Below, in pieces: positions 14,866-64,000 of a stretch of DNA of 64,000 bases. A program made the translations under genes and the position numbers. The notes below the pieces were generated by a model, which saw only the letters and a program-made list of their open reading frames with translations, was not told the DNA's origin and did no database searches. The number at the start of each line of letters is the position of its first letter. Positions within the stretch are counted from its first letter, which is position 1. Source of the DNA: Erysipelotrichaceae bacterium. GTDB lineage: Bacteria; Bacillota_I; Bacilli_A; RFN20; CAG-826. Location of the stretch: contig SVBE01000001.1 in the NCBI GenBank assembly GCA_015059065.1, positions 14,998 through 78,997 of the forward strand. Reading direction: 5' to 3'.

Positions 14866-14917
14866 ATTTTATCATATTATTGACACTTCTAAAATTATTT
14901 TAGAAAATAAACATAAT

Positions 14918-15505
14918 ATGAAAAAAGGTTTATTAATCATTCTTAGTGGTCCATCAGGTGTTGGCAAAGGGACGGTTAGAGAATACATATTTTCTCATAG
15001 CAATCTCCCCTTTGTTTATTCTGTTTCGATGACAACAAGAGAACCTCGTAATGGTGAAGTTGACGGTAAGGATTATTATTTTGTTTCTGATGAAGAATTT
15101 CAAAGAAACGTCCAAAACAATAATTTCTTAGAACACGCTTCCTTTGTGGGACATTCATACGGCACGCCTAAAGATAAAGTCGAAGCGTTACGTAATGAGG
15201 GCAAACATGTCTTCTTAGAGATTGAAGTTAATGGTGCTACCCAAGTGCTCACTAATCACAAAGAACCAGGCGTTGTTTCTATTTTCCTCATGCCGCCTTC
15301 TCTCCGAGCATTAGAGAATCGTATCAAAGGTCGCAAGACTGAACCAAAAGAAATCATCGAAAAAAGATTAGAAAAAGGACGTCGTGAAATTCAATTAGCT
15401 GGAATGTATGACTATGTGGTCATCAATGACAGAGTTGAAAACGCGAGCCAAAAGATCATGGACATCATCCTTAACAAGATTAAGGAAAATAAAGAGGAAG
15501 ATTAG
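14918..15505 (+). CDS. gmk: guanylate kinase
   Basis: LSGPSGVGKGTV P-loop, TTREPRNGEVDGKDYYFVS. ATG 14918 is preferred over the ORF-track start at 14750, which would overlap rqcH. Confidence 0.93.
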   Translation: MKKGLLIILSGPSGVGKGTVREYIFSHSNLPFVYSVSMTTREPRNGEVDGKDYYFVSDEEFQRNVQNNNFLEHASFVGHSYGTPKDKVEALRNEGKHVFLEIEVNGATQVLTNHKEPGVVSIFLMPPSLRALENRIKGRKTEPKEIIEKRLEKGRREIQLAGMYDYVVINDRVENASQKIMDIILNKIKENKEED

Positions 15506-17701
15506 TTGAAAGTAATTGAACTTTTAATTGAGCATAACTCTTTGACGTTAAATCGTCCTTTTACCTATATCTATAATGGGGATAAAAACATTGTTAATGG
15601 TGTTCGTGTTCTCATCGATTTTCATCATCAAGAATTAGTGGGATATGTCACCTCTTGTAAAGATACAGAGCTTAACAAAGAACAATTAGAACAAGAAACG
15701 GGGTATCAATTAAATGAAATTATCGATGTTATCGATGAATCTCCGTTATTAAATGAAGATCTCTTATTATTAGCAGAAGAGATTTCTTCCTATTATTTAG
15801 CGAGCAAGATATCGGTTTTACAAAGCATGCTTCCACCTTCTTTATCTCCGAGAAGGTCTTCTTTAAAAGCCCCGAAAATTGCCTATGACCAATATTTAAA
15901 GATTAAAAAATACGATGAATCAGATTTAACTGGTAAACAAATTGAAATATTAAAACTAGTTCAAAAAGAAGGAGAAGTGCTGAAAAAAGAAGTGAGATCT
16001 CCTTCCATTGTTAAACGTTTAATTGAATTAGAAAGAATAGAAATTATTTATAAAGAGAAAACTCGATTAGAGATGCCTTCTTTTGATCTGGAAGAAGCAA
16101 AGACTTTGACTAAGAAACAACAGGAAGTTAAAGATGAATTCCTTTCTAGTAGCGACCAAGTATATTTATTAGAGGGTGTTACTGGTAGTGGGAAAAGCGA
16201 AGTCTATTTATCGATTTCTGAAGAGATTTTAAAAGAGGGCAAAACCGTTTTAATGCTCGTTCCTGAGATTTCTTTAACCCCGATGATGGTGGAATATTTC
16301 TTAAAGAGATTTGAGGGAAAAGTTGCCGTTCTACATAGCGAGCTTACTCCAGCCGAAAAATATGACGAATATCGTAAAATCGCTCGTGGTGAATGTCAGA
16401 TAGTCGTCGGAGCGAGAAGTGCGATATTCGCTCCACTTGATAACATTGGGCTTATCATTTTAGATGAGGAGCACGTCGAATCATATAAGCAGGATAGTCT
16501 CCCATATTACCACGCTCGCGAAGTGGCAATCATGAGAATGAAAAGACATAAAGGGAAAGTGCTTTTAGGTAGTGCCACCCCTTCATTAGATTCAAGAGCG
16601 AGAGCGCAAAAAGGGATTTATCATCTCCTCACATTACCAGAAAGAGTGAATAAACAAGAGCTCCCTTCAACATATGTGATCAATATGCTTAATCATAGCA
16701 ATATCGACCGCGATTCCTATATCTTTTCTAAACAGTTGAGAAGAGAAATAGCGGAGACATTAAATAGAAAAGAACAGATTATTCTTCTATTAAATAGAAG
16801 AGGGTTTTCCACTAATGTGTCGTGCCGCAGTTGTGGCTATGTTTTTCGTTGCCCAGAATGTGGCATCCCTTTAACATTCCATAAAGAAGATGGGCTTCTT
16901 AAATGTCATCACTGCAACCATGTGGAAAAGATGCCCGATGCTTGCCCAGAATGCGATTCCCCTTATCTCATGAAGACAGGATTTGGATGTGAAAGGGTGG
17001 AAGATGAAGTGAAGAGATTATTTCCAGAAGCGAGAACTCTTCGCCTTGATAGCGATTCCGCGAAGGTGAGAACTAGAGTTGGTAAAATCATTGAGCAGTT
17101 CCGCGAGCATGATGCTGATATTTTAATCGGTACACAGATGATTGCTAAAGGACATGATTTTCCTCTTGTGACACTGGTGGGAATTGTTCTTGCTGATATC
17201 GGTTTAAACATGCCGAATTACCGCAATAGTGAACGCACTTTCCAACTTATTACCCAGGCAATTGGCCGTGCAGGTAGAAAAGACAAAATGGGTAAAGCTT
17301 ATGTTCAAACATATTCGCCTAGTCATTATGCGATCACGATGGCGGCAAGACAGGATTATGAACAGTTCTATAAAATAGAAATGCGTCAAAGGAATCAACA
17401 ATATTACCCGCCTTATTCTTATTTAGTGAGTTTGACTGTCAGTGGTAAAAATGAAGATAAAGTAATAGAGTCTGGATTCCTTCTTGCAGATTTATTAAAA
17501 GAGATTGACGATGAACGCAGAGTGGTACTTGGTCCAGTCACTCCATATATCGCGACTGAGAAAGGCCATTTTATTCGTTCCGTTTTACTCAAATATCGCG
17601 ATGAGAAGAAAGTGCGAGAAAAACTATTAGAAATAATCGAGAGATTTAGACTGAAATCATCGGTCAAATTATCGGTTAATATAGACCCCTACAATTTCTA
17701 A
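15506..17701 (+). CDS. priA: primosomal protein N' (replication restart helicase)
   Basis: 731 aa with a TTG start. GVTGSGKSEVY, DEEH, and the Cys-rich zinc region CRSCG...CPECG...CHHC...CPECD. Confidence 0.93.
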   Translation: MKVIELLIEHNSLTLNRPFTYIYNGDKNIVNGVRVLIDFHHQELVGYVTSCKDTELNKEQLEQETGYQLNEIIDVIDESPLLNEDLLLLAEEISSYYLASKISVLQSMLPPSLSPRRSSLKAPKIAYDQYLKIKKYDESDLTGKQIEILKLVQKEGEVLKKEVRSPSIVKRLIELERIEIIYKEKTRLEMPSFDLEEAKTLTKKQQEVKDEFLSSSDQVYLLEGVTGSGKSEVYLSISEEILKEGKTVLMLVPEISLTPMMVEYFLKRFEGKVAVLHSELTPAEKYDEYRKIARGECQIVVGARSAIFAPLDNIGLIILDEEHVESYKQDSLPYYHAREVAIMRMKRHKGKVLLGSATPSLDSRARAQKGIYHLLTLPERVNKQELPSTYVINMLNHSNIDRDSYIFSKQLRREIAETLNRKEQIILLLNRRGFSTNVSCRSCGYVFRCPECGIPLTFHKEDGLLKCHHCNHVEKMPDACPECDSPYLMKTGFGCERVEDEVKRLFPEARTLRLDSDSAKVRTRVGKIIEQFREHDADILIGTQMIAKGHDFPLVTLVGIVLADIGLNMPNYRNSERTFQLITQAIGRAGRKDKMGKAYVQTYSPSHYAITMAARQDYEQFYKIEMRQRNQQYYPPYSYLVSLTVSGKNEDKVIESGFLLADLLKEIDDERRVVLGPVTPYIATEKGHFIRSVLLKYRDEKKVREKLLEIIERFRLKSSVKLSVNIDPYNF

Positions 17702-43944: not shown

Positions 43945-43973
43945 AGCCTATCTATTTAGATAGGCTTTTTTTT
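43945..43973 (+). terminator. intrinsic terminator of eno
   Basis: AGCCTATCT-ATTT-AGATAGGCT followed by TTTTTTT. Confidence 0.85.
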
Positions 43974-43979
43974 CGCAAA

Positions 43980-44029
43980 AAATTTCTGCGACGAAAATTG
44001 CGATTTTTACACTCTTTATATATAGGGGG
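43980..44029 (+). repeat. left copy of the 50-bp inverted repeat (promoter/operator-like), directly upstream of the pilus-like operon
   Basis: AAATTTCTGCGACGAAAATTGCGATTTTTACACTCTTTATATATAGGGGG. It matches the reverse complement of 50157-50206 at 41/50 positions ungapped, with perfect blocks of 11 and 15 nt. Confidence 0.85.
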
Positions 44030-44036
44030 ACTTTTT

Positions 44037-44345
44037 ATGAACTCACTTAAAAGCATGGTAAAAATGGAAGATGAAGTCGGCGTCATCATGTCAATTTATG
44101 CGAAAAACATCTTGTCTGTTATCGATGAAAACAACAATTCCTCAATCCCAAAAATTAATCTATTTTACATCCATCGAGTACAAGAGGCATTTAACGCACT
44201 AAATGAAGAAGAACGTGAATTAATCAATAATGATTTTTTGGACGCCGATTCCCCACATTGGTGGGAACCATTTTATACGAACGAGCAATACCTGAAATTA
44301 AGGTATTCGTCTGTGAGTTCATTTTTGATGCATTTTTATGATTAA
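44037..44345 (+). CDS. small cytoplasmic protein, first gene of the pilus-like operon (possible sigma region-4/ArpU-like regulator)
   Basis: ~102 aa from ATG 44037. No TM segment. The C-terminal segment LNEEERELINNDFL...YLKLRYSSVSSFL resembles small phage-type transcription activators, but the similarity is weak and from memory only. Confidence 0.45.
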   Translation: MNSLKSMVKMEDEVGVIMSIYAKNILSVIDENNNSSIPKINLFYIHRVQEAFNALNEEERELINNDFLDADSPHWWEPFYTNEQYLKLRYSSVSSFLMHFYD

Positions 44346-45369
44346 TCTATTCCTCCATATCAAAAAAGCATTGCCTGTTCTTCTACTAATTCTATTTAGT
44401 TGCTTTTTTGCTTTCGGTGATAATTCTCCTATAAATCACCTTAAGCGTAGAAGTGCATCGTCCCCCATTCTTTTCACTAGTTCGACACTTTATGGTCCAT
44501 ATAAAGGAGGAGAAGAAATTACATTTAAATGGTCGTATAGAAATGTTTCGGGAACTAATTATAGCTCTGTCAATGATTATTTCATTGTTAGTTGTCCCTC
44601 TTATTCCTCTTCCCCTTTATTGAGCAAAAGGGTTAGTAAACATTCTTTAGCTATAGGTGCTAAACAGAATCTATCTTATTCATATAAGATTCCACCCCAA
44701 AGATTTAACACTGAATCAGGCCTTGTTATTAAAGTTGGTGTTCAGTATGGAGGGAGCTATTTATCTATAATTGAAAAAACTATAAAACCAATCAGTAGTA
44801 AAACTATTAATCCGCTTGATTATAGGTCTTCTCCATATGTTATTAAAGATAGATCATTTTATCTTAAAGATGTTGAGGTGAATGAGAGCTTTTTATTTGA
44901 CGAATATCGCGATTATGTGGAATGCGATCAGTATAATCGTCTATTGTTATCTAATCTTACTTTTAGATACAACTACCCATTAAAACTTCTTTATAAAAAC
45001 GCGAGGGTAAAATTCCTTGACCCAGAAAACATTTTTTCAAGCCTATCTTTAGATGGCGATGGTTATCGAAGCATCAATATTGTTTTAGATGATCAAGATG
45101 GAATAGTTAAAATTCTTATCCCTTCCATTTATTATGATCCACTCAGTTTAGTCCCTAACGATAAAGGGAAGGGAAATAAAACAAAATATCTATATGTTCC
45201 TAAAGGAAAAAGCAAAAAGATAGAGAAATATGAATTCATCATTGAGGCTACTGGGTTAGGGATTAACAAAACTAGCTTTTCACATTGTTTAGAATTATCA
45301 ATTTCACCTTTTTTCCTCGGTGATTGTATCGATTCAGACTACTGCATAGTTGGAGGGGTGAAAAAATGA
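44338..45369 (+). CDS. secreted protein / putative lipoprotein of the pilus-like operon
   Basis: 343 aa. The N-terminus KKALPVLLLILFSCFFA has a signal peptide with a lipobox-like LFSC. Ser/Tyr-rich with no recognised domain. 8-nt overlap with the upstream gene. Confidence 0.55.
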   Translation: MINLFLHIKKALPVLLLILFSCFFAFGDNSPINHLKRRSASSPILFTSSTLYGPYKGGEEITFKWSYRNVSGTNYSSVNDYFIVSCPSYSSSPLLSKRVSKHSLAIGAKQNLSYSYKIPPQRFNTESGLVIKVGVQYGGSYLSIIEKTIKPISSKTINPLDYRSSPYVIKDRSFYLKDVEVNESFLFDEYRDYVECDQYNRLLLSNLTFRYNYPLKLLYKNARVKFLDPENIFSSLSLDGDGYRSINIVLDDQDGIVKILIPSIYYDPLSLVPNDKGKGNKTKYLYVPKGKSKKIEKYEFIIEATGLGINKTSFSHCLELSISPFFLGDCIDSDYCIVGGVKK

Positions 45370-45749
45370 TCATTTTATTCATATCTTTGATGTTTTTATT
45401 AATGGGTTATTCTTTGTTTTCGTTTTCTTTTGCTGCACATGGCATTAATCGTTTAATTATCAACGCGCCGAGGACGATTTTTGAATATGGTGTAGTTGTT
45501 AATGATAGTGGGAACCCATATTACGAACAAGATAATATCAAGAAACGCTACAAAGCATATCTTGATGACAATATTTATCAATATGTTAATAGCTATGATT
45601 TATCATTTCGTTTTTATTACCCTGTAACAGGAGGGCTATGCGAGGAAAAATGCGAAGGAGTGGAAGTTAATATAACTTCGATTATTACCTTTTCTTTTGA
45701 GTATTCGCGAACGATGTTTTATGAAATAAGCGAGGTGCAAAATGGATAA
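45366..45749 (+). CDS. small N-terminally anchored protein (TadE/pseudopilin-like position)
   Basis: 127 aa from ATG 45366 behind SD GGAGGGG. One N-terminal TM (MIILFISLMFLLMGYSLFSFSFAA). ATGA overlap with the upstream gene. Confidence 0.5.
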   Translation: MIILFISLMFLLMGYSLFSFSFAAHGINRLIINAPRTIFEYGVVVNDSGNPYYEQDNIKKRYKAYLDDNIYQYVNSYDLSFRFYYPVTGGLCEEKCEGVEVNITSIITFSFEYSRTMFYEISEVQNG

Positions 45750-46806
45750 GAAGCAAGGTTTAGATTTCTTATATTCTACGAAATTATCTCCATATTTTAA
45801 AAAGGACAATATTACCGATATTTCGTATAATGGTATTGATATTTTTTATGTCGATAATAATGCAGGAAGAATAAAAAGCGATATCGCCTTTAGCCAAGAT
45901 GAAGCGCGCGATTTTATTCGTCAAATAGCGAATATATGTGAAAAACAGTTTTCAATGACATCGCCTAGACTTGATGTTACGATTGACAAATTCCGTATTA
46001 ACGCAATGCATCAATCAATTGGAAGAGTTAAAGACGAACAAGCTGTGACTTTTTCAATACGTATAGCTTCTAAAAAAATACGCATCTATGATGATGAGGA
46101 TTTTTTGACCGAAGAAATAAAAGAATTATTCGATGTTTTGATGGTATCTCATCAGTCTATTGTACTAGGCGGGTTACCTGGGTCTGGAAAAACGGAACTT
46201 CAAAAATATTTATTGACGAGACTTGCTAAAGATCAAAGAGCAATTGTTGTGGACAACGTCCTAGAGCTTGAAACGATTAGAGAATATATCAATTACGATT
46301 TAACGATGTGGCAGTATAACGAGAACAATCCGAATGCATCGTTGCCTTTGCTAATTAAAGAAGCGTTAAGAAATATGCCAGATTGGCTCATTTTAGCCGA
46401 AGGAAGAGGAAAAGAAATGCTTGATATTCTTAATTCGGCGGTGACGGGGTTACCGATTATTACTACTTTGCACGCTTACGATGTTCATAGCATAGTCATT
46501 AGAATGGCAAGAATGGTAATGCAAAATCAGGAAAACAGTCGTTATGAAGATGTTTTAAATGATATAAAATATCACTTTCGTTATTTCGTTTATTTAAAAA
46601 GAGAAAAAGATTCCTCAGGTGTAATAAAAAGATATATCTCTTCAATATTGCATTTAACTCCTAAAGGTGAAGCGATTGAAATATATAATAACGATTTGCA
46701 AAAGATTAGATATGGAAAAATTGATAGAGAATCGTTGTTATTGTTAAAAATTAAAAAGAATCAGACTTCTTTCATAAGAAGTTTTATAGGAGATGTAAAT
46801 GAATAG
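45742..46806 (+). CDS. tadA: CpaF/TadA/VirB11-family secretion ATPase
   Basis: 354 aa. FRINAMHQSIG...FSIR, Walker A GGLPGSGKTELQ, VDNVLELE, ALRNMPDWLILAEGRGKE (Walker B/Asp box), ITTLHA (His box). Confidence 0.85.
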   Translation: MDKKQGLDFLYSTKLSPYFKKDNITDISYNGIDIFYVDNNAGRIKSDIAFSQDEARDFIRQIANICEKQFSMTSPRLDVTIDKFRINAMHQSIGRVKDEQAVTFSIRIASKKIRIYDDEDFLTEEIKELFDVLMVSHQSIVLGGLPGSGKTELQKYLLTRLAKDQRAIVVDNVLELETIREYINYDLTMWQYNENNPNASLPLLIKEALRNMPDWLILAEGRGKEMLDILNSAVTGLPIITTLHAYDVHSIVIRMARMVMQNQENSRYEDVLNDIKYHFRYFVYLKREKDSSGVIKRYISSILHLTPKGEAIEIYNNDLQKIRYGKIDRESLLLLKIKKNQTSFIRSFIGDVNE

Positions 46807-47506
46807 TTATCGCCTTTATTTTGTTATTATCGCTTTAATCGCTTCTGGTGTTTGCTTTTTTGCGAGTGAGAATCTTTATATCACGATTGGGGTAGGGGTC
46901 GTATTTCTTATTTATCCTCAAATAATGTTAGTAAAAAAGATTGAAAAAAGTAATTCAACATATAGCCGATATCATGAGTGTTTTCACTTTGTTAACTCAT
47001 TTATTGTGAGCATTGATATACGCGGATCATTAAACGGCGCTTTTTCCTCAATAAACCCGACAATGAGTAAATCATATCAAGCTGTTTATGAAGGCATAGA
47101 GTCAAACAAAAGTGAAGATAAAATCACTTATTTGCAGAAATATTTCCCTTTCCATTACTATGGCTTATTTATAAAAATAATAAATCTTTGGCAAGAACAA
47201 GGTGGAGATATTTTATCTATGTCGTCCCATTTATTAGAAGAGGGAAGAAAAAGTGAGGAATATTTAAGATACTGTCAAGACTCACATCTCACAAGGACGA
47301 TGGAATTTGTAGTCTTATGGGTTTTTGCCTTGGTTAATCTTGTCGTGATGCGTGTTTCCTTAAACCAGTTTTTCACACATATTGTTAACAATATAGTCTA
47401 TCAGGTTGGATTAACTGCATTCTTCCTCTTCTTTCTAATAAGCATCGATATTCTTGTGAGAAAAGTTACGAGTAAAGAAGTAAAGGGGTGGGATGAATAT
47501 GAATAA
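46799..47506 (+). CDS. TadB-like inner-membrane platform protein (T2SSF-like)
   Basis: 235 aa. N-terminal TM pair, a cytoplasmic helical domain (...LWQEQGGDILSMSSHLLEE...) and C-terminal TMs. Size, topology and position after the ATPase fit TadB. Confidence 0.6.
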   Translation: MNSYRLYFVIIALIASGVCFFASENLYITIGVGVVFLIYPQIMLVKKIEKSNSTYSRYHECFHFVNSFIVSIDIRGSLNGAFSSINPTMSKSYQAVYEGIESNKSEDKITYLQKYFPFHYYGLFIKIINLWQEQGGDILSMSSHLLEEGRKSEEYLRYCQDSHLTRTMEFVVLWVFALVNLVVMRVSLNQFFTHIVNNIVYQVGLTAFFLFFLISIDILVRKVTSKEVKGWDEYE

Positions 47507-48167
47507 ATTAAGAAGAATAATTGAAGAACAAGGTCTTTCATTTTCAAAAGAGATGTTTAAATTAGCATTGATTAACGTCTTTTTCATCGCTTTAGGAGTC
47601 CTCGTTTTTTGTTTAAAGTTAGAAAAATACTATTACATAGTGGTCGTGGTGTTTTTATTGCTTGCAAATTATTTTTTCATTAGTTCTTATTCTAGTCGTT
47701 ACCAGCAGATGATTTATCAGCACGACGATGAATTAATTGCTTTGTTTTCATATTTTAAAGTTTTTATATCGAATCATATTCCGGTCTATTCGGCATTTAC
47801 AAATTTGCTTGCTTATTCAAGTGACTGGATGAAAGAAAAGATAAATCTTTTACTTAAAGAAATTGACAATGACAAAACAGTGCAGCCTTTTATACGTTTT
47901 AGCAAAAACTTTCAAAATCTAGTTTTTGAATCTTTGTGCATTTCTTTGTACCAAATGATTGATGAGGGAGAAAGCTTAGAAAAGAGCAATGAGTTCACTT
48001 TCTTATTTAACGAGGTGAATGAATCGAATATACGTCGGAAAATGGAGAAAAAGAAAAGGTCCTTAGATATTCTGGCTTCTTTTCCTCTATTTGGAAGTGG
48101 GATCATTACTGTGACTCTTACTATTAGTATTGTTTCAAGCATTGGAGGTATGATAAATGTCTTCTAA
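47493..48167 (+). CDS. TadC-like inner-membrane platform protein (T2SSF-like)
   Basis: 224 aa with the same topology as the preceding gene. 14-nt overlap with it. Confidence 0.6.
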   Translation: MNMNKLRRIIEEQGLSFSKEMFKLALINVFFIALGVLVFCLKLEKYYYIVVVVFLLLANYFFISSYSSRYQQMIYQHDDELIALFSYFKVFISNHIPVYSAFTNLLAYSSDWMKEKINLLLKEIDNDKTVQPFIRFSKNFQNLVFESLCISLYQMIDEGESLEKSNEFTFLFNEVNESNIRRKMEKKKRSLDILASFPLFGSGIITVTLTISIVSSIGGMINVF

Positions 48168-48498
48168 AATTGGAACGATTTTATCGATGTTATTTGTAGT
48201 CATGTTTTTCCTTTTTGGGACTGATTTATTATGCCTTCAATATTGCTATTCATCGCTCGATTCTAAAGGAATAACTATTTCTTATTACATAAGCAAAAAT
48301 GGCAGAATTGATAACGATTTTATTTCTTATTTATCGAATAAATACGAAGTTGAAATAATCGCAGATCAAAAACAATCAGTTGATTATGGAGACGTTGTTA
48401 GATTCACGATTAGAGATACATTTAACCCATTGGTGATATCTAGCTCAGAGATGGTTGTATCTATCTCTAGAGAAGCGATTATTGGCTATTATGGGTAG
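48157..48498 (+). CDS. small N-terminally anchored protein (TadE-like/minor pilin candidate)
   Basis: 113 aa with a single N-terminal TM (IGTILSMLFVVMFFLFGTDLL). 11-nt overlap with the upstream gene. Confidence 0.5.
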   Translation: MSSKIGTILSMLFVVMFFLFGTDLLCLQYCYSSLDSKGITISYYISKNGRIDNDFISYLSNKYEVEIIADQKQSVDYGDVVRFTIRDTFNPLVISSSEMVVSISREAIIGYYG

Positions 48499-48512
48499 AA
48501 AGGAGGGTAAGT

Positions 48513-48698
48513 ATGTCAGAGATCAAAGGACAACTATTAGGAATAATTCTCGTTTTAATGGTTTTTGGTGCGGTGTCGGCAGCAATGGTGGTTGTATTTA
48601 ATAAACTTACAAAGAGTGTCGAAGACCAAGTAACAGAAATAACTAATTCGTCATCAAAAAAGAGTGTTTACCAAATTGACGATTATCTTTCCTATTAG
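48513..48698 (+). CDS. Flp/archaeal-type pilin-like protein
   Basis: 61 aa. MSEIKG|QLLGIILVLMVFGAVSAAMVVVF has a short charged leader, Gly, then ~22 hydrophobic residues and a short polar tail. Strong SD AAAGGAGGG. Confidence 0.5.
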   Translation: MSEIKGQLLGIILVLMVFGAVSAAMVVVFNKLTKSVEDQVTEITNSSSKKSVYQIDDYLSY

Positions 48699-48762
48699 AA
48701 ATAATACTTTTTGCTTTCTTCCTCGAGGCAAAAACAATACAATATTTTTATGAGGCCTCAAA

Positions 48763-48987
48763 ATGGATGTTGTTAATACCATTAAAGTAATTTTAGCTAA
48801 GCGTGTTGATGTAACTAAACTTAAGCCTGAGGATACTTTGCCATCACTTGGTTTAGACTCTTTAGATCTAGTTGAAGTTATGCTTGAAATTGAATATGCT
48901 CTCCATATTGAATTCACAAGTGAAGAGATTACAAATTTGACTACAATTCAAAGTGTAATTGATTTGATTAATGCTAAATTAGCATAA
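48763..48987 (+). CDS. acpP: acyl carrier protein
   Basis: 74 aa. LGLDSLDLVEVMLEIE, with the DSL serine as the phosphopantetheine attachment site. Confidence 0.85.
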   Translation: MDVVNTIKVILAKRVDVTKLKPEDTLPSLGLDSLDLVEVMLEIEYALHIEFTSEEITNLTTIQSVIDLINAKLA

Positions 48988-49033
48988 AATCTTGTTTCGT
49001 TAAAATCTTTGTGATATTATCGTTGTTGCGCTT

Positions 49034-49109
49034 GCCTACCTAGCTCAGTCGGTAGAGCTATCGGCTGTTAACCGATCGGTCGTGGGTTCGAGTCCCTCGG
49101 TAGGCGCCA
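49034..49109 (+). tRNA. tRNA-Asn (GTT)
   Basis: Cloverleaf: acceptor GCCTACC/GGTAGGC, D arm GCTC/GAGC, anticodon arm ATCGG-CTGTTAA-CCGAT, T loop TTCGAGT (one U-U mismatch in the T stem), encoded CCA. Confidence 0.88.
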
Positions 49110-49114
49110 CAACT

Positions 49115-49191
49115 GGCCTGTTGGAGAAGCGGCTTAACTCACCACCCTTTCACGGTGGCATTCATGGGTTCGAATCCCATACAGGTCACCA
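49115..49191 (+). tRNA. tRNA-Glu (TTC)
   Basis: Acceptor GGCCTGT/ACAGGTC, anticodon arm CCACC-CTTTCAC-GGTGG, T arm ATGGG-TTCGAAT-CCCAT, encoded CCA. Closely resembles Bacillus tRNA-Glu. Confidence 0.9.
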
Positions 49192-49202
49192 ACCCAAAAA
49201 AT

Positions 49203-49222
49203 ACAGCTTCGGCTGTTTTTTT
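49203..49222. terminator. bidirectional intrinsic terminator after the tRNA pair
   Basis: AAAAAAT-ACAGC-TTCG-GCTGT-TTTTTT. A UUCG tetraloop flanked by A and T runs. Confidence 0.75.
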
Positions 49223-49225
49223 GTT

Positions 49226-49322
49226 GTGACTGTATGCGAACCATGAATGGTTAAGCTCTTCTCAACACCAGTTGGCACCTACACACCCACGACCAATCAG
49301 TTAACGCCTTAGGCGCACGACC
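49226..49322 (-). pseudogene. degenerate inverted copy of the tRNA-Asn/tRNA-Glu pair (pseudo-tRNAs)
   Basis: 49226-49269 aligns to the reverse complement of tRNA-Glu (GTGAC.TGTATG....CGAACC.ATGAATG[anticodon arm missing]GTTAAGC.CTTCTC.AACA). 49273-49322 aligns to the reverse complement of tRNA-Asn (TGGCaCCTAC[T arm missing]ACCCACGACCaATCaGTTAAC...). Confidence 0.65.
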
Positions 49323-49370
49323 AAAACAATGACAAAGTCATTGCTTTAGTTTTTGATACCAAAATCTTGT

Positions 49371-50123
49371 TTATGGCAAGTAATGAGTGCTGATATAATT
49401 CATGTTCTCGAGAATATTAGGCCAATAGAATTCAACTCTTCTTCGATAAGATTCGTTTTTAATTTTGGTCTTGTAGTACCTAGCATGAGGCCTAAATAAA
49501 ATTGGCCCAATATGAAGTGCTTCGATAAAGTCCCAGTCTTTGCTTTCAAGATATTTTAAAACCTGAGTGCGAGAAATGATTACACCGATATTGACATCGC
49601 CGTGATATAGATAATCTGCAGAAATGTAATCTTCTTGTGAACCCTTAAATAAAAAACGATCAACCATATCAACAACAAATCTGCGATTAGCATTTAGTTC
49701 TCTGTTGCCAAGAATGAATGGTTTCTCGAGTTTTTTTCTTAGAGCAGGATAGCTCATTCTCTCTTTTCCGGAACCATCATATGTTCCGTCTCCAAATTGG
49801 AAAAAAAGAATTGTTTTGAGCAAATAATCGTGGAAACCATAATCTCTAAGCAGATTAATAAAATTTTTAATGTATTCTTGATGAACAATGTTATTGATAC
49901 CGCTTTTCATCGAAATATAATGAGTTTCATCATTTATGGTAATGGAAAAATCAGGCTTCATTGTTCCTTCAATTTGTTTGGCATAAACGATATCGCCATC
50001 GTGACAATTAGGAAAAACAAAGCGGACAATATTCTGCAAATTAAGCGATAGTAGTGACACTGGTTTTTCATTCAGTTCAGCGACCATTTGTGACTCTTTT
50101 AATTCGCCGTGGTTATACTTCAT
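49371..50123 (-). CDS. PD-(D/E)XK restriction-endonuclease-like protein (MspI/HpaII-like core?), no adjacent methyltransferase
   Basis: 250 aa with SD GGAGGGAG. The candidate nuclease core GTMKPDFSITINDETHYISMKSG fits a PD...(S/N)xK pattern like MspI KTD...NIK. The N-terminal NHGELKE is reminiscent of the HpaII-family GEWSE. Recognition is from memory only. Confidence 0.4.
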   Translation of the reverse strand: MKYNHGELKESQMVAELNEKPVSLLSLNLQNIVRFVFPNCHDGDIVYAKQIEGTMKPDFSITINDETHYISMKSGINNIVHQEYIKNFINLLRDYGFHDYLLKTILFFQFGDGTYDGSGKERMSYPALRKKLEKPFILGNRELNANRRFVVDMVDRFLFKGSQEDYISADYLYHGDVNIGVIISRTQVLKYLESKDWDFIEALHIGPILFRPHARYYKTKIKNESYRRRVEFYWPNILENMNYISTHYLP

Positions 50124-50156
50124 AAACTCCCTCCTTTCTGGAGGCTAAACAAAAAC

Positions 50157-50206
50157 CCTCCTATATATAAAGAGGGCAAAAACGCGAAATTTCGACGCAG
50201 AAATTT
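50157..50206 (-). repeat. right copy of the 50-bp inverted repeat, upstream of the nuclease-like gene
   Basis: On the minus strand it reads AAATTTCTGCGTCGAAATTTCGCGTTTTTGCCCTCTTTATATATAGGAGG. It contains the 10-bp palindrome CGAAATTTCG and lies 33 nt upstream of the ATG at 50123. Confidence 0.85.
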
Positions 50207-50249
50207 ATTTTTTTGATTATTTTTTTGTCTATAAAATACTTTTATCGAT

Positions 50250-50912
50250 TTATCGATAAGAGAAAAGAGAGTCTAAGTAGTCCGCAAGCTCATCAGTGCC
50301 TTCATCTTTAATCGAACTAACTTTGAAAACTTTAGCATTTGGATTTCTTTTATGGATATTTGCTTCACATTTTTTAAAGTCAAAGTTGAAGACGGGTAGA
50401 GTATCAATTTTTGTTATAACCGCTATATCACTAACTTGGAACATTAAAGGGTATTTAAGAGGTTTATCGTCACCTTCAGGCACGGACAAAAGCATCATAT
50501 TGATGTTACTGCCTGTATCAAATTCAGCGGGGCATACAAGGTTGCCAATGTTTTCGAGTATTAAAATATCTAATCCTTCAACATTAAACTCATTTATTGC
50601 ATCATTAACCATCTGTGCGGTTAGATGACATGCTCCTGAGGTGTGAATTTGAATTGACTTAACGCCAGTAGCAGAGGATATTCTTTCCGCATCAACTTCT
50701 CCATCAATGTCCGCTTCCATCACGCCAATTTTGTACTTTTTCTTTAATTTATTGATGATATTTGTTAATAGAGTGGTTTTGCCACTTCCTGGTGAAGCCA
50801 TTACGTTAAGGAAGAAAATGCCTTTTTCTTTAAGCATTTTTCTCACCTCTTTTGCCTTTTCATTATTCTCAACAAGAATGTCTTCTTTAACTTTTACCAC
50901 CTGATATTCCAT
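50250..50912 (-). CDS. hypB: hydrogenase/urease-type nickel-insertion GTPase HypB (copy 1)
   Basis: 220 aa from ATG 50912 (SD GAGAGGT). [15 protein letters not shown] (CH metal motif), ENIGNLVCPAEFD, TKID. No His-rich or CxxCGC N-terminus. Confidence 0.88.
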   Translation of the reverse strand: MEYQVVKVKEDILVENNEKAKEVRKMLKEKGIFFLNVMASPGSGKTTLLTNIINKLKKKYKIGVMEADIDGEVDAERISSATGVKSIQIHTSGACHLTAQMVNDAINEFNVEGLDILILENIGNLVCPAEFDTGSNINMMLLSVPEGDDKPLKYPLMFQVSDIAVITKIDTLPVFNFDFKKCEANIHKRNPNAKVFKVSSIKDEGTDELADYLDSLFSYR

Positions 50913-51003
50913 ATAATAATTACCTCTCATACATAATATCATAAAATAATTAGTAGTTTTATTATTAAACATAGTTTACAATAAATACGTTAAGAAATTA
51001 GCA

Positions 51004-51678
51004 ATGAGTGAAATCAAGACTATCACAGTAAATCGTTCAGCTTATGCGGACAATGACGAGGAAGCAAATTTATTGAGAGAGTATCTCAAGAGCAAAGGAA
51101 CTTTTCTTGTGAATCTCATGTCTTCGCCTGGCGCGGGTAAGACTACAACGTTAATAGCTTTGATAAATGTCTTGAAAAAGCAATTTCGCATTGGCGTGAT
51201 GGAAGCGGATATCGATAGTGATGTCGACGCCATTTCTATCGCAAAGAATACAGGAGTAAAATCGATTCAGATTCATACTTCAGGAATGTGCCACCTTGAT
51301 GCAGGAATGACGAAAAGTGGACTTGACAGTATTGATATCAGCGATCTTGACCTTGTGTTCTTAGAAAACGTAGGTAATCTCGTTTGCCCAGCGGAATTCG
51401 ACACTGGAGCGAGTATGGACATGATGATCCTTTCCATTCCAGAAGGCGATGATAAGCCGTTAAAATATCCACTCGTATTTGAGAAATGTGATCTCGTTCT
51501 CATCAATAAGATTGACACTATATCATATTTCAACTTTGATATCGACAAGTGTAAACAAGCGATACTTCGAAGAAATCCTCACGCAACGATTATTCCTATT
51601 AGTGGTTTAACTGGGGAGAACATTGATAAAGTTGCAGAATATTTTAGTAATATCATTAAGAACTGGAAGGAGAAATAA
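51004..51678 (+). CDS. hypB: nickel-insertion GTPase HypB (copy 2)
   Basis: 224 aa. SPGAGKTTTL, GMCHLDA, ENVGNLVCPAEFD, NKID. Divergent from copy 1, separated by a 91-nt spacer. Confidence 0.9.
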   Translation: MSEIKTITVNRSAYADNDEEANLLREYLKSKGTFLVNLMSSPGAGKTTTLIALINVLKKQFRIGVMEADIDSDVDAISIAKNTGVKSIQIHTSGMCHLDAGMTKSGLDSIDISDLDLVFLENVGNLVCPAEFDTGASMDMMILSIPEGDDKPLKYPLVFEKCDLVLINKIDTISYFNFDIDKCKQAILRRNPHATIIPISGLTGENIDKVAEYFSNIIKNWKEK

Positions 51679-62089: not shown

Positions 62090-64000
62090 ATGGCTAAGGA
62101 TAATGTGATGCTCAGATTAGTAGATATCGTCAAAGTCTATCAAGCAGGTAATAACAAAGTAAGAGCCGTTGATGGTGTCTCACTTAATTTTCGTAAAAAT
62201 GAATTCGTTTCCATACTTGGTCCATCAGGTAGTGGTAAGACAACGTTATTAAATATTATTGGCGGACTTGATCATTATACTTCAGGTGATTTAATCATTG
62301 CTGGGAAGTCGACCAAACAATATAAAGACAGAGATTGGGATAAATATCGTAACTTGCGCGTTGGTTTCATCTTCCAAAGCTATAATTTAATTCCTCACCA
62401 AAGCGTTCTCGCTAACGTTGAACTCGCTTTAACGATTTCTGGCGTTGGCAAAGAAGAGAGAAAACAAAGAGCGATTGAAGCACTTACTAAAGTTGGCTTA
62501 GGCGACCAAATCAATAAGAAACCTAACCAATTATCGGGTGGGCAATGCCAAAGAGTGGCGATTGCGCGTGCCTTAGTCAATAACCCAGAAATATTATTAG
62601 CAGATGAACCTACAGGTGCCTTAGACACAAAGACCAGCAAGCAAATCATGGATTTAATTGCCGAGATTGCTAAAGATCGTTTGGTCATCATGGTTACTCA
62701 TAACCCAGAATTAGCGGAAGAATATTCTTCCCGTATCATCCGTTTATTAGACGGAAAAATCAGTGATGATTCAAATCCATTAGTTGCTGAAGAAAACTAT
62801 GAAGAGGAAGAAAAAGAGACTAAGGCCAAAATGGGCTTTTTGACAGCGTTGAAGTTATCTTTCAAAAACCTCGTCAGTAAGAGAAAAAGAACAATATTAG
62901 TCGCGATTGCTTCTAGTATTGGCATTATCGGTGTTTCGACAGTTTTATCTGTCTCATATGGCGTTACTAATTATATCAACGGCATGCAAGATGATATGTT
63001 ATCTTCCTATCCTTTGGAGATAAGCGAAGCTTCCGTTGATCTCACCTCACTTATGAGCGGTTTATCTTCTGATGAGAAAAGAGAGTTGGCGCAGTTTGAT
63101 GCAACCACTCAAGTTGGTATGGATTCGATGATCTCTTACTTAATGAGGAGATATTCAGATATCACAAACATTAAGACCAACGATATCAATGAAGACTTAG
63201 TGGCGTATGTCCATGATATGCCAGTAGACACATACGCGACTATTAAAGATGAATACGGCATTGATGTTACAAACAACATCTTCACGAACTGGAAATCATC
63301 AAAACAAGAAGATTATACGAGATATAACATCTCTCTCAATGGTTTAACTCAAAGATATATTTCTGAACTCAAAACGGTTGAAGGCTTCGCTGCTTATGCT
63401 TCTTATGTCGATTTATTCACAAACTTCATGAAACAATATCCAGGCAATGAAGAATATATTCTCAATCAATACGATTTGGTTGGCGAAAATTCCAAATTCG
63501 CGACTGCTGAAAATGAAATCATGATAGTAGTGGATAGCAATACAACTCTCACCGACTTTACCTTAGCTCAGATGGGTTTTTATGAACACGACGAGTTCAT
63601 CAATATCGGTAAGAAAGCTGTTAAATATAATGAACTCACAACGGCATATAATGAAAAACCAACACATACTGCCGAGGAGAAAAAAGCTTATGAAGACAGT
63701 GTTAAACAACTCGATACAGATTATCCATATCGCACAGTTTTTAATGATTATCCTGATTTAATAGGTACGGAATTCTATTATTTCCCACATTCCGCTTTAT
63801 GGGAATACGGCAATGTTTCTACCTCTACCACAATGGAAGGCACATTGTTCCTTTCCAATAATGATGGGTATTTATATTACTTCACTTTATCCACTCAAAA
63901 TTTACTTGGAAATGACTTAGATATCCTCGCTGGAGTGAAGATTGCTCCTGGTCAACCAATCGACTTAAATAATCTTAATTACTTTGTAAGACAAGCTTCT
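62090..64000 (+). CDS. MacB-like fused ABC ATPase/FtsX-type permease, 5' part (continues beyond window)
   Basis: Frame is open from ATG 62090 (SD AAAGGAGG) to the window end, 637 codons. [31 protein letters not shown], then one TM ([19 protein letters not shown]) and more than 370 aa of hydrophilic domain. Confidence 0.85.

What the first reader, a model, noticed from the sequence alone, without database searches (positions are those of the whole stretch)
43980..50206. 6.2-kb accessory module bracketed by a 50-bp inverted repeat located at the 5' ends of two convergent transcription units
43980-44029 reads AAATTTCTGCGACGAAAATTGCGATTTTTACACTCTTTATATATAGGGGG. The reverse complement of 50157-50206 reads AAATTTCTGCGTCGAAATTTCGCGTTTTTGCCCTCTTTATATATAGGAGG. 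These are 41/50 identical ungapped, with perfect blocks AAATTTCTGCG and CTCTTTATATATAGG. The left copy ends 7 nt before the first ATG of the pilus-like operon (44037). The right copy ends 33 nt before the ATG of the nuclease-like gene (50123, minus strand). Both copies point inward. The module sits between eno with its own terminator and hypB. By eye it looks more AT-rich than the flanks, and it holds all the non-core genes of the window plus tRNAs and tRNA debris. There are two readings. (a) The repeat is a shared promoter/operator (TATATA -10-like box, CGAAATTTCG dyad) that defines a small regulon. (b) The copies are terminal inverted repeats of an acquired or invertible segment. I see no recombinase or transposase, so I favour (a), possibly on an old island.
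Basis: seen in the sequence. Interest (0 to 1): 0.75.

Follow-up and report, generated by a model that had tools for sequence, protein, structure and literature searches.

The report
Shared control element of DNA-uptake genes
The two inverted 50-base repeats are not the ends of a mobile segment: they are two of at least seven copies of a roughly 60-base promoter-plus-leader element that this uncultured gut or rumen bacterium places directly in front of its DNA-uptake (natural competence) genes.

Summary
The arms match at 41/50 ungapped, against a best of 32 in shuffles, and the window holds only these two copies.

The "bracketed accessory module" framing is wrong:
- The pilus operon, ACP, tRNA-Asn and tRNA-Glu form a conserved syntenic block in relatives.
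- The 250-aa gene sits elsewhere in most of about 80 related genomes. There it still carries a related upstream element.

A metagenome scan found five more full copies in the same species. Each lies within 6-15 nt of a candidate start codon. They sit in front of:
- comEA-comEC;
- a double-glycine-leader peptide plus radC;
- a C39-peptidase membrane protein;
- two bacteriocin-exporter-like ABC proteins;
- an MqsA-family antitoxin module.

A second species carries the element in front of the same four orthologues tested.

The downstream half (T5, CTCTTTATATATAGGAGGG, T-run) is nearly invariant. It can fold into a hairpin that covers the ribosome-binding site. The upstream half (TTTCTGCGWCGAAAWWT here) is identical within a species but differs between species, which suggests a co-evolving dedicated regulator.

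The 250-aa protein has a HinP1I-like restriction-endonuclease fold and no partner methylase.

Reading (a), a shared promoter/operator defining a regulon, is supported and extended to a competence regulon. Reading (b), terminal inverted repeats, is rejected. The transcription start and the regulator remain inferred.

The parts
43945..43973 (+). eno terminator: a 9-bp hairpin plus a T-run, directly upstream of the left element.
   Evidence: Terminator scan; sequence.
43977..44036 (+). Left copy of the regulon element, the pilus-operon copy. It ends 1 nt before the ATG at 44037.
   Evidence: Scores 84.7 bits with model R1.
43983..43999 (+). Species-specific upstream box TTTCTGCGACGAAAATT. This is the proposed recognition site and -10-like GAAAAT of a dedicated regulator or sigma factor.
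   Evidence: The core TGCGWCGAAA is shared by all 7 copies in this species; the TTTC before it by 6 of 7. The box is replaced by other boxes in two sister species. In 1.84 Mb of fetched DNA it never occurs without the downstream half.
44004..44029 (+). Invariant downstream half: T5, ACA, then CTCTTTATATATAGGGGG. It is hairpin-forming and contains the Shine-Dalgarno sequence. This is the weak pilus variant.
   Evidence: Invariant columns in 13 sites from 3 species. Fold energy -3.7 kcal/mol.
44037..44345 (+). g1, 102 aa: an MG284/MPN403-family four-helix protein. Its weak structural matches are mostly to sigma-factor region 4. Candidate regulator (a lead only).
   Evidence: NCBIfam NF045770, 53.5 bits against a cutoff of 37.3. 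Model pLDDT 92.4. Foldseek hits to sigma region 4 and sigma-28, all with E > 1.
44338..45369 (+). g2, 343 aa: a predicted exported protein of the pilus operon. No family match.
   Evidence: Conserved in L018, L087, L089 and L091.
45366..45749 (+). g3, 127 aa: N-terminal hydrophobic segment, possibly a minor pilin or pseudopilin.
45742..46806 (+). Secretion/pilus ATPase of the VirB11/CpaF/FlaI clade.
   Evidence: Pfam T2SSE, 2.5e-16. NCBIfam VirB11 and TadA matches below their cutoffs. PDB sequence matches: HP0525 2.3e-15 and CpaF 2e-9.
46799..48167 (+). Two polytopic membrane proteins (235 and 224 aa) in the position of TadB/TadC platform proteins.
   Evidence: No sequence match to known platform proteins.
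48157..48698 (+). Two small proteins (113 and 61 aa) with pilin-like hydrophobic N-termini.
   Evidence: Conserved in L007 and L018.
48763..49191 (+). Acyl carrier protein, tRNA-Asn and tRNA-Glu. This is a conserved downstream neighbour block and probably not part of the regulon.
   Evidence: The same order is found in L007, L018, L087, L089 and L091.
49371..50123 (-). 250-aa protein with a HinP1I-like restriction-endonuclease (PD-(D/E)XK) fold and no adjacent methyltransferase.
   Evidence: Alignment A1 invariants K56-P57-D58, S71, K73 and E83. Model pLDDT 89.8. Foldseek hit to 2fkc_A, E 1.4e-8, TM 0.61 over 253 columns. Neighbour analysis.
50124..50156 (-). Extra leader found only in this species' nuclease copy. 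It holds a second anti-SD/SD hairpin (50130-50144) and a possible 10-codon TTG-initiated upstream ORF whose TGA overlaps the ATG.
   Evidence: Fold of 50115-50184, -19.5 kcal/mol with two hairpins. The sister species L087 lacks this insert.
50151..50209 (-). Right copy of the regulon element, the nuclease copy. The box TTTCTGCGTCGAAATTT is at 50203-50187, and the hairpin GCCCTCTTTATATATAGGAGGGT is at 50177-50155.
   Evidence: Scores 87 bits with model R1. The terminator scan flags the hairpin plus TTTTGTTT.

Best explanation
Each arm of the repeat is one copy of a roughly 60-nt cis-regulatory cassette (promoter plus 5' leader). The cassette drives a natural-competence (DNA-uptake) regulon in this uncultured Bacilli lineage. 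The two copies form an inverted repeat only because two regulon members happen to lie convergently here: the pilus-like operon and a HinP1I-fold nuclease gene.

Shown:
- The same cassette, in the same orientation, lies within 6-15 nt of a candidate start codon in front of at least seven transcription units of this species. These include comEA-comEC and radC.
- The cassette sits in front of the orthologous genes in a second species.
- The downstream half is almost invariant.
- The upstream half is uniform within a species and different between species.

Inferred:
- A dedicated regulator, either an alternative sigma factor or an activator, reads the species-specific upstream box. In this species the box is TTTCTGCGWCGAAAWWT: a T-rich stretch followed by a WCGAAA/-10-like GAAAAT. 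This is reminiscent of the streptococcal SigX box.
- Transcription most likely starts near the T5 run.
- The invariant leader then folds into an 8-bp hairpin of about -11 kcal/mol. Its 3' arm is the Shine-Dalgarno sequence, and a U-run follows it. Expression would therefore be gated twice: by the regulator, and by ribosome-binding-site occlusion or weak attenuation.
- The pilus copy carries a conserved weakened hairpin. The nuclease copy in this species carries two hairpins.
- The pilus-like machine, driven by a VirB11/CpaF-clade ATPase, is proposed to be the transformation pilus.
For: Repeat significance.

Five extra full copies in the same species. Sample Ga0247609 contains contig Ga0247609_10000394, which is 99% identical to the window.

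Identity of the downstream genes:
- ComEA: HHH_3 at 1.9e-16, and TIGR00426 above its cutoff.
- ComEC-like: NF045979 at 5e-19.
- RadC: 2.7e-25.
- Peptidase_C39: 1.3e-17.
- MqsA-family antitoxin above its cutoff.
- An ABC protein resembling bacteriocin exporters.

A second species has the cassette before the pilus g1, nuclease, C39 and comEA genes.

Concerted evolution: the upstream half is 0.80 identical between different genes of one species, but only 0.56 between the same gene in different species. The downstream half is 0.87-0.91 identical in all comparisons.

The box never occurs alone in 1.84 Mb of fetched DNA.

Homologues of the 250-aa gene in about 65 genomes keep a T-tract (85% against 41% of controls). 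They also keep a C-TAT...GGAGG module (35% against 5%), even though they are not next to a pilus operon.

L018 and L087 have genome-specific shared blocks on both the pilus and the nuclease promoters.

Hairpin evidence:
- Fold energies of -11 kcal/mol with z about -3.
- SD pairing enriched against other strong-SD genes: 54% against 32%, p=0.006; MFE p=1e-5.
- A compensatory change between two copies in one genome, L040: CTCTA/TAGAG against CACTA/TAGTG.

The streptococcal SigX regulon likewise contains comEA, radC and bacteriocin genes. Its box is a T-rich tract plus TACGAATA at -10 (PMC6001120).
Against: - No transcription start has been mapped.
- The loop TATATAT and, in relatives, TATAAT or TACAAT (L059, L036) could instead be the -10. 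That would put the start inside or after the AGGAGG.
- The CGAA core is not general in the wider family (27% against 14% of controls). It is also absent in two sister species, which have CTAAAAT and AGAAAAT.
- No sigma factor or regulator gene has been identified.
- Canonical recombination genes (dprA, ssbB, recA, comF) were not recovered. The exact-match scan could only find copies with an identical downstream half.
- The hairpin is weak in the pilus copy (-3.7 kcal/mol, z -0.9). Only about half of the distant homologues show SD pairing.
- Assigning the five extra copies to the same genome rests on three things: the shared sample, similar GC content, and the identical species-specific box. 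It does not rest on a closed genome.
- Competence itself has never been shown in this lineage.
Confidence: 0.75

Rival explanations
1. Same regulon, different promoter geometry. In this version the upstream box is the binding site of a class-II-type activator centred near -41. The conserved downstream half is the core promoter: an AT-rich -10 in TATATAT or TATAAT, with a G-rich discriminator AGGAGGG. Alternatively, the two halves are the -35-like and -10-like blocks of an ECF-like sigma factor (CGAAA-N15-CCTCTT here; TCAACA-N16-CGTCTT in L018). In either case transcription starts in or just after the AT-rich stretch. The 5' arm would then not be transcribed, and there would be no RNA hairpin.
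For: - A core that is conserved across species next to a fast-evolving upstream site is the usual pattern for a core promoter plus an activator site.
- L059 and L036 have perfect TATAAT or TACAAT at this position.
- In L018 the two shared blocks are separated by a spacer that is T5 in one copy and A5 in the other.
- Other promoters in this window place the -10 only 6-10 nt before the SD.
Against: - In this species no hexamer in CTCTTTATATATAGG has both A at position 2 and T at position 6. The sigma-70 scan reports nothing there.
- A start after AGGAGG would remove a Shine-Dalgarno sequence that keeps canonical 6-10 nt spacing to the ATG in about 60 genomes.
- The arm covariation, including a compensatory pair within L040, needs both arms on one strand.
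Confidence: 0.3
2. The cassette is a dispersed promoter-carrying repeat (REP- or MITE-like). It spread by duplication and is kept uniform by gene conversion, without a dedicated regulator.
For: At least seven near-identical copies per genome. Within-species uniformity of the upstream half could come from conversion. Short-read assemblies break at the element (L003, L004 and L006 start inside it).
Against: - All copies have one orientation and lie within 6-15 nt of a candidate start codon.
- No copies occur in other contexts in 1.84 Mb of fetched DNA or in the rest of the window.
- The same orthologous genes carry the cassette in a second species.
- Homologous genes carry a related element across about 65 genomes.
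- Several of the genes served are functionally linked to DNA uptake.
- The element has no terminal repeats or target duplications around it.
Confidence: 0.08
3. The two arms are terminal inverted repeats of an acquired or invertible 6.2-kb segment.
For: Inverted orientation; lower GC inside; tRNA genes and inverted tRNA fragments inside.
Against: - There is no recombinase or transposase gene.
- The pilus-ACP-tRNA block has the same neighbours (eno or gmk) in L087, L089 and L091.
- L089 keeps the left copy but has other genes and no nuclease on the right.
- In most genomes the nuclease gene with its element lies far from any pilus operon.
- Five further copies exist elsewhere in the genome.
Confidence: 0.02
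4. The regulon is real but does not serve genetic transformation. It could serve DNA scavenging as a nutrient, adhesion or biofilm formation, or a stress, defence or fratricide programme that happens to include comEA/comEC.
For: The regulon also holds toxin-antitoxin genes, a bacteriocin-like peptide, ABC exporters and a restriction-like nuclease. No dprA, ssbB or recA copy was found. Liberibacter is reported to use Tad pili and ComEC for DNA uptake linked to missing nucleotide biosynthesis (PMC8513845, title and abstract).
Against: ComEA, ComEC and RadC together with a pilus machine are the hallmark of competence regulons. Streptococcal SigX regulons also contain bacteriocin and fratricide genes. 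DNA uptake is the common step in both readings.
Confidence: 0.15

Closest known systems
SigX (ComX) box / cin-box late-competence regulon of streptococci
   Same: One short cis element marks all the DNA-uptake operons. It has a T-rich tract followed by a CGAA-containing -10-like box and no obvious -35. Both regulons include comEA, a pilus operon, radC and bacteriocin or fratricide genes (PMC6001120). One subclade of relatives (L051-L053) has an exact TTTTTTACGAATA before the nuclease homologue.
   Different: The box here is TTTCTGCGWCGAAAWWT (4-6 of 8 to TACGAATA, depending on the copy) and it changes between sister species. The element is about 60 nt long with an invariant SD-containing leader hairpin. 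It lies about 43 nt from the ATG, against about 20 nt in streptococci. No ComX gene has been identified. The pilus is not the ComG type.
ComG competence pilus (ComM) of monoderm bacteria, and Tad (type IVc) pili used for DNA uptake
   Same: An operon with a secretion ATPase, two membrane platform-like proteins and small proteins with pilin-like N-termini, co-regulated with comEA/comEC. Tad-type pili have been linked to DNA uptake in Liberibacter (PMC8513845) and, from my own knowledge, in Micrococcus luteus. The type IV filament superfamily framework is described in PMC6668835.
   Different: The ATPase is closest to VirB11/CpaF/FlaI, not to ComGA. The platform and pilin candidates have no detectable homology to TadB/C, Flp or ComGC. 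The operon has no prepilin peptidase. Instead the regulon holds a C39 peptidase and a peptide with a double-glycine-type leader.
SD-sequestering leader hairpins (for example ROSE or fourU RNA thermometers, and translational operators)
   Same: A short 5' leader stem whose 3' arm is the ribosome-binding site. The arms co-vary between genomes.
   Different: Here the same leader is copied in front of every member of a regulon and is followed by a U-run. No Rfam family matches. The trigger that would open the hairpin is unknown.
HinP1I / MspI-type monomeric type II restriction endonucleases
   Same: A full-length fold match to HinP1I. There is an invariant PD...SxK motif plus glutamates.
   Different: There is no neighbouring methyltransferase in about 80 loci. 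The gene is under the competence element. The protein family is confined to Mollicutes-related Bacilli MAGs. Functionally it may parallel competence nucleases such as NucA, EndA or CoiA; this is my inference.

Membership tests
SigX/ComX-box promoters | Octamer TACGAATA at -10. | tested here: not met
   This species has [AT]CGAAA[AT][AT], 4-6 of 8 depending on the copy. Sister species have AGAAAAT or CTAAAAT. CGAA[AT] is only weakly enriched across the family, 27% against 14%. The exact box occurs only in L051-L053.
SigX/ComX-box promoters | T-rich tract just upstream (about -25). | tested here: met
   ATTTCT lies 3 nt before the box in 6 of 7 copies. A T5+ tract is present in 85% of homologue upstreams against 41% of controls.
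SigX/ComX-box promoters | Located before DNA-uptake and DNA-processing operons. | tested here: met
   Found before comEA-comEC, radC and the pilus-like operon.
SigX/ComX-box promoters | Transcription depends on the alternative sigma factor ComX. | not testable with these tools
   No whole genome was available and no sigma gene was found in the window or loci. g1 shows only a weak resemblance to sigma region 4.
Tad (type IVc) pilus | TadA/CpaF-family ATPase. | tested here: inconclusive
   T2SSE domain. NCBIfam VirB11 104.7 bits and TadA-family 94.7 bits, both far below their cutoffs. PDB sequence matches: VirB11 2e-15 and CpaF 2e-9.
Tad (type IVc) pilus | TadB/TadC (T2SSF) platform proteins. 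| tested here: not met
   Two polytopic proteins sit in the expected position. They have no Pfam, NCBIfam or PDB-profile match. Fold was not tested.
Tad (type IVc) pilus | Flp pilin with a G/XXXXEY processing motif, and a TadV prepilin peptidase. | tested here: not met
   The 61-aa candidate begins MSEIKGQLLG... and lacks the E/Y motif. The operon has no aspartic peptidase.
HinP1I-like type II restriction endonuclease | PD-(D/E)XK fold resembling HinP1I. | tested here: met
   Foldseek hit to 2fkc_A: E 1.4e-8, probability 1.00, TM 0.61, 253 aligned columns. The model has pLDDT 89.8.
HinP1I-like type II restriction endonuclease | Cognate methyltransferase encoded next to it. | tested here: not met
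   There is no methyltransferase among the recurrent neighbours in the loci. The commonest neighbour is a MacB-like ABC protein, in 18 loci.
Transposon or invertible segment with terminal inverted repeats | A recombinase or transposase, and repeats that travel with the segment. | tested here: not met
   No such gene is present. The arms occur independently of each other in relatives and at five other loci.
REP/MITE-like dispersed repeat | Copies at unrelated intergenic sites in either orientation. | tested here: not met
   All 7 plus 4 copies have the same polarity and lie within 6-15 nt of a candidate start codon. No stray copies were found.
MG284/MPN403 protein family (g1) | Match to NCBIfam NF045770 above its curated cutoff. 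| tested here: met
   53.5 bits against a cutoff of 37.3, over residues 44-99. There are 77 representatives of about 100 aa.

The most novel reading that the evidence does not exclude
Mollicutes-related gut and rumen Bacilli may possess a previously undescribed natural-transformation system with four unusual features:
- The uptake pilus is driven by a VirB11/CpaF-clade ATPase. Its platform and pilin proteins have no detectable relatives. It may be matured by a C39 (double-glycine) peptidase rather than a prepilin peptidase.
- A HinP1I-fold nuclease without a methylase is a core regulon member.
- The whole regulon is switched by a dedicated, rapidly co-evolving regulator that reads the species-specific half of a 60-nt cassette. 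That regulator may be the sigma-region-4-like MG284/MPN403-family protein encoded by the first gene of the pilus operon.
- The invariant half of the cassette acts as a common translational gate.
Probability: 0.3. Interest if true: 0.8.

Novelty: new variant of a known kind. Interest (0 to 1): 0.62.

Why it matters
- It gives a sequence signature (model R1) that can enumerate the competence regulon in a large, uncultured, Mollicutes-related group of gut and rumen bacteria. No competence system has been described for this group in the literature I could search.
- It predicts that a non-ComG pilus machine serves DNA uptake in a monoderm lineage.
- It places an orphan restriction-like nuclease, a double-glycine peptide with a C39 peptidase, and toxin modules under competence control. 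This parallels the streptococcal fratricide and defence add-ons.
- The within-species uniformity and between-species turnover of the upstream box is a clean natural experiment on regulator and cis-element co-evolution.
- It also assigns a testable role to the uncharacterised MG284/MPN403 family, which is present in mycoplasmas.

Tried and rejected
- **Gibbs sampling** of the 67 upstream regions locked onto the trivial T-tract and the SD.
- **Family and structure searches for the 250-aa protein, g2, g3 and g5-g8.** Pfam gave nothing for these. A PDB sequence profile gave nothing for the 250-aa protein. Only fold comparison worked for it.
- **Rfam** found only the two tRNAs.
- **g1 as a sigma region 4 protein.** Pfam and PDB sequence profiles were negative. 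Foldseek hits are thematically consistent but all have E > 1, so I treat this as a lead only.
- **Known promoter types checked by eye.**
  - A sigma-54 reading (TGCGACG-N4-TTGCG) fails because the -24 GG is absent and the right copy is out of register.
  - A LexA/Cheo box reading (CGAAC-N4-GTTCG) has no matching right half.
  - A ComK AT-box reading (AAAA-N5-TTTT) has inconsistent spacing (5-7 nt) and cannot be tested.
- **Sigma-70 -35/-10 scan.** No hit at either copy.
- **Position histogram of AAAAT/AAATT relative to the SD.** No sharp peak, so the -10 assignment stays an inference.
- **Contig ends of Logan assemblies** at TTTGCCCTC... (L003, L006). I first considered these as possible 5' ends. 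I rejected that because short-read assemblies are expected to break at a repeat of about 32 nt shared by several copies.
- **Searching the fetched loci for T-tract plus ACGAATA** found no further informative sites.
- **Model R1 is too species-specific** to detect distant copies. It recovered only L007, L087, L089, L036, L041 and L042.
- **The literature search** found nothing on MG284/MPN403 or on competence in this lineage.

Full report
**1. The observation.**

The two 50-mers read exactly as reported. They share 41/50 positions without gaps. Shuffling the two intergenic regions 200 times gave a mean best match of 25.9 and a maximum of 32. The repeat finder extends the pair to 59 nt at 80% identity. 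Neither perfect block recurs elsewhere in the 64-kb window. A covariance model built later scores 87 and 84.7 bits at the two sites and at most 22.9 bits anywhere else.

The stated distances to the two start codons are right. So are the eno terminator, the HypB-family neighbours and the lower GC of the pilus operon.

**2. The genes between the arms.**

On the plus strand, one tightly packed operon runs from 44037 to 48698:
- a 102-aa protein (g1);
- a 343-aa exported protein;
- a 127-aa protein;
- a T2SSE-domain ATPase;
- two polytopic membrane proteins;
- two small proteins with hydrophobic, pilin-like N-termini.

The ATPase is nearest to VirB11, CpaF and FlaI, and it scores below every curated family cutoff. 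The other proteins match no family. The one exception is g1, which matches the NCBIfam MG284/MPN403 domain above its cutoff.

An ACP gene, tRNA-Asn and tRNA-Glu follow the operon.

On the minus strand, 49371-50123 encodes a 250-aa protein with no family match.

**3. The segment is not a bracketed module.**

The 250-aa family is small. It is confined to uncultured 'Bacilli / Erysipelotrichaceae / Tenericutes' MAGs from rumen and gut.

I fetched 80 loci around homologues. Only L007 and L018 have the pilus operon nearby. Even so, most homologues keep a related upstream architecture. Measured against other AT-rich, strong-SD upstream regions in the same loci:
- a T5+ tract is present in 85% against 41%;
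- a C-TAT...GGAGG module is present in 35% against 5%.

Conversely, the pilus operon, ACP, tRNA-Asn and tRNA-Glu sit next to eno or gmk in L087, L089 and L091 (73-79% and 49% ATPase identity). In L018 and L007 the pilus genes and the two tRNAs lie in the same order.

L089 keeps the left element, but other genes and no nuclease lie between the tRNAs and hypB.

So the pilus block is core synteny for this lineage. Only the nuclease gene moves, and it takes its 5' element with it. No recombinase is present. The terminal-inverted-repeat reading is therefore excluded.

**4. The key result: more copies.**

An exact scan of metagenome contigs for CTCTTTATATATAGGNGG returned 76 stretches. Most are chance matches with unrelated flanks.

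One sample, Ga0247609, contains a contig that is 99% identical to the window. That sample holds both window copies and five more full-length copies on other contigs. Copies with identical element and flanking sequence recur in a second sample, Ga0310697.

Each copy has the same polarity and lies within 6-15 nt of a candidate start codon. The downstream genes are:
- comEA (HHH_3, SLBB, TIGR00426 above its cutoff) followed by a ComEC-like protein (NF045979, DUF4131);
- a 59-aa peptide whose N-terminus, KLSIEECKNIYVG, resembles a double-glycine leader (my reading), followed by radC (PF04002) and a 123-aa protein;
- a 391-aa Peptidase_C39 membrane protein;
- two ABC ATPase-permease fusions that resemble MacB and bacteriocin exporters;
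- after a longer leader with a small upstream ORF, a toxin-like protein and an MqsA-family antitoxin.

A second species (L127, L136, L148, L157) carries the cassette in front of its C39, comEA, pilus g1 and nuclease orthologues.

comEA/comEC, radC and a pilus machine under one element is the signature of a competence regulon. The streptococcal SigX regulon contains the same core plus bacteriocin and fratricide genes (PMC6001120).

**5. Anatomy of the cassette.**

This comes from the alignment of 13 sites in three species. The consensus for this species is:

AAAWTTTCTGCGWCGAAAWWT - N4 - TTTTT - RCC - CTCTTTATATATAGGAGGG - T5-7 - ATG

- **Downstream half.** The T5 run and CTCTTTATATATAGG are invariant in all 13 sites. 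Identity is 0.87-0.91 in every comparison.
- **Upstream half.** It is 0.80 identical between different genes of one species, but only 0.56 between the same gene in different species. The three species carry TGCGWCGAAAWWT, AAGCGAAGAAAAT and TGT(G)CTAAARTG.
- **Farther upstream** there is no conservation (0.38-0.41).
- **Co-occurrence.** In 1.84 Mb of fetched sequence the sp1 box never occurs without the downstream half.
- **Same behaviour elsewhere.** L018 has shared blocks TTCAACATTTT ... CCGTCTT ... ATATATAGG on both the pilus and nuclease promoters. L040 and L059 have a second copy in front of a tiny hydrophobic ORF.

Uniformity within a genome combined with turnover between genomes is what co-evolution with a dedicated trans-acting factor predicts.

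**6. The leader hairpin.**

In the comEA, C39 and radC copies, GCCCUCUU/AGGAGGGU forms an 8-bp stem of -11 kcal/mol (z -2.2 to -3.5). It buries the Shine-Dalgarno sequence and is followed by a U-run. The terminator scan even flags the right window copy.

The pilus copy has a weakened stem, ACACUCU.../AGGGGGA, at -3.7 kcal/mol. This variant is conserved in three species. The nuclease copy of this species has a 26-nt insert with a second anti-SD/SD stem (total -19.5 kcal/mol). The insert is absent in sister species L087.

I compared 52 distant nuclease homologues with 195 other strong-SD genes from the same loci:
- at least 4 SD nucleotides are paired upstream in 54% against 32% (p=0.006);
- the leaders fold more stably (p=1e-5).

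The arms co-vary between genomes: CCCACT/AGTGGG, CTCCTA/TAGGAG, CCTAT/ATAGG. The two copies inside L040 differ by a compensatory pair, CTCTA/TAGAG against CACTA/TAGTG. This favours a structure on one strand, most simply the mRNA.

**7. How it most likely works.**

Shown: a regulon-wide cassette with a species-specific half and an invariant half.

Inferred:
- The specific half is the promoter, read by a dedicated factor. It has a T-rich stretch plus a -10-like GAAAAT, GAAATT or TAAAAT with A at position 2 and T at position 6. It has no -35. This is like the T-tract plus TACGAATA of SigX boxes.
- Transcription starts near the T5 run.
- The invariant leader gates translation, or weakly attenuates transcription.

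The main rival geometry puts the start in or after the AT-rich loop. In that version the specific half acts as an activator site or as a -35-like block. It is favoured by perfect TATAAT or TACAAT at that place in L059 and L036, and by the variable spacer in L018.

Three points count against it:
- this species has no correctly phased -10 in the loop;
- the SD would be lost from the transcript;
- the arms co-vary, which needs both on one strand.

I put about 55-60% on the leader-hairpin geometry and about 30% on the rival. Only 5' end mapping can decide.

**8. The regulator is unknown.**

g1 is the first gene behind the pilus copy. It is also the fastest-evolving protein of the operon. It is 47-50% identical to its nearest database relatives, which include the second species' g1. 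The ATPase is 73-79% identical in the sister species.

Its confident four-helix model gives only non-significant PDB matches, although most of the better ones are to sigma region 4, sigma-28 or ECF sigma factors. g1 is absent from the L018 operon. I treat it as a lead and nothing more.

**9. The 250-aa protein.**

Alignment A1 shows invariant K-P-D58, S71-x-K73 and E83. The model (pLDDT 89.8) matches HinP1I over its whole length: E 1.4e-8, TM 0.61.

No methyltransferase recurs next to it. The commonest neighbour is a MacB-like ABC protein. The protein has no signal peptide.

An orphan, restriction-like nuclease under competence control, and doubly gated in this species, could process or police incoming or donor DNA. 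Its substrate is unknown.

**10. Comparison with known systems.**

The cassette works like a SigX-box regulon but fails the membership test on the octamer itself. The sigma factor cannot be tested here.

The pilus machine is of the type IV filament kind. It fails the sequence tests for Tad platform proteins, pilin and peptidase, and it is not ComG.

I found no description of competence, of this element or of MG284/MPN403 function in the searchable literature.

**11. Verdict.**

The repeat is real. It is two copies of a competence-regulon promoter/leader cassette and not the boundary of an island.

I classify it as a new variant of a known kind, with several unusual components. It makes competence in a large uncultured lineage directly testable.

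Noticed in passing
window 49229-49310 (minus-strand sense): Decayed inverted copies of parts of tRNA-Glu and tRNA-Asn lie between the tRNA genes and the 3' end of the nuclease gene. For example, 49285-49305 is 90% complementary to 49067-49087. The stretch is conserved next to the nuclease in L007 (87% identity), even though the tRNA genes there are about 8 kb away. This suggests an old rearrangement or insertion scar, and a variable hotspot downstream of tRNA-Glu.
   Followed up: partly
L040 12420-12599 (-) and L059 17754-18010 (+): In two distant relatives, a second copy of that genome's own element precedes a tiny hydrophobic ORF (about 26-41 aa, for example MTDIVLILFEMIIVLVLIRKDPSDKR). In L059 it is preceded by a long, probably structured leader. 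These resemble type I toxins or small bacteriocins.
   Followed up: partly
L122 2555-2735 (+) and L103 (391-aa gene): The 59-aa peptide upstream of radC has a double-glycine-type leader (KLSIEECKNIYVG | EAITLSAV...). A C39 peptidase membrane protein lacking an ABC ATPase domain is in the same regulon. The peptidase weakly matches NCBIfam 'pilus system C39 peptidase FilB' (E 5e-4). It may mature a pilin-like or bacteriocin-like peptide.
   Followed up: partly
L051-L053, about 60-75 nt upstream of the nuclease homologue: This subclade (Bacillales bacterium UBA4278 / UBA4365) has an exact streptococcal-type TTTTTTACGAATA box followed by a different hairpin (GCGACA...TGTCGC). This suggests a true ComX-type promoter in that branch.
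   Followed up: partly
window 50124-50156 (-): There is a possible 10-codon upstream ORF that starts with TTG (TTG TTT AGC CTC CAG AAA GGA GGG AGT TTA TGA). Its stop codon overlaps the nuclease ATG. The single difference in the 99%-identical strain L166 (AGT to AGC) is synonymous in that frame.
   Followed up: no
window 50250-50972 (-) and 51004-51678 (+): Two paralogous HypB/CobW-family GTPase genes are arranged divergently, only 31 nt apart (about 51% identical to each other by tblastn in L007). They are followed by a large Fer4/pyridine-nucleotide oxidoreductase and hypA. This arrangement is conserved in L007, L087 and L089.
   Followed up: no
L007 10936-19146: In the closest NCBI relative, about 8.2 kb of other genes is inserted between the nuclease gene (with its tRNA debris) and tRNA-Glu. 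The content of this insert was not examined.
   Followed up: no
window 14857-15826 and 62692-64000: My crude ATG-only gene call left two long stretches (970 nt and about 1.3 kb) without a called ORF. Rfam finds no RNA family there. They may hold genes with non-ATG starts or pseudogenes.
   Followed up: no
L003, L004, L006 (Logan assemblies): Short-read assemblies of this organism break inside the element: the contigs start at TTTGCCCTC... or TTGTTTAGCC.... This is expected for a repeat of about 32 nt shared by several copies. MAGs of this lineage will therefore tend to be fragmented exactly at competence promoters.
   Followed up: partly
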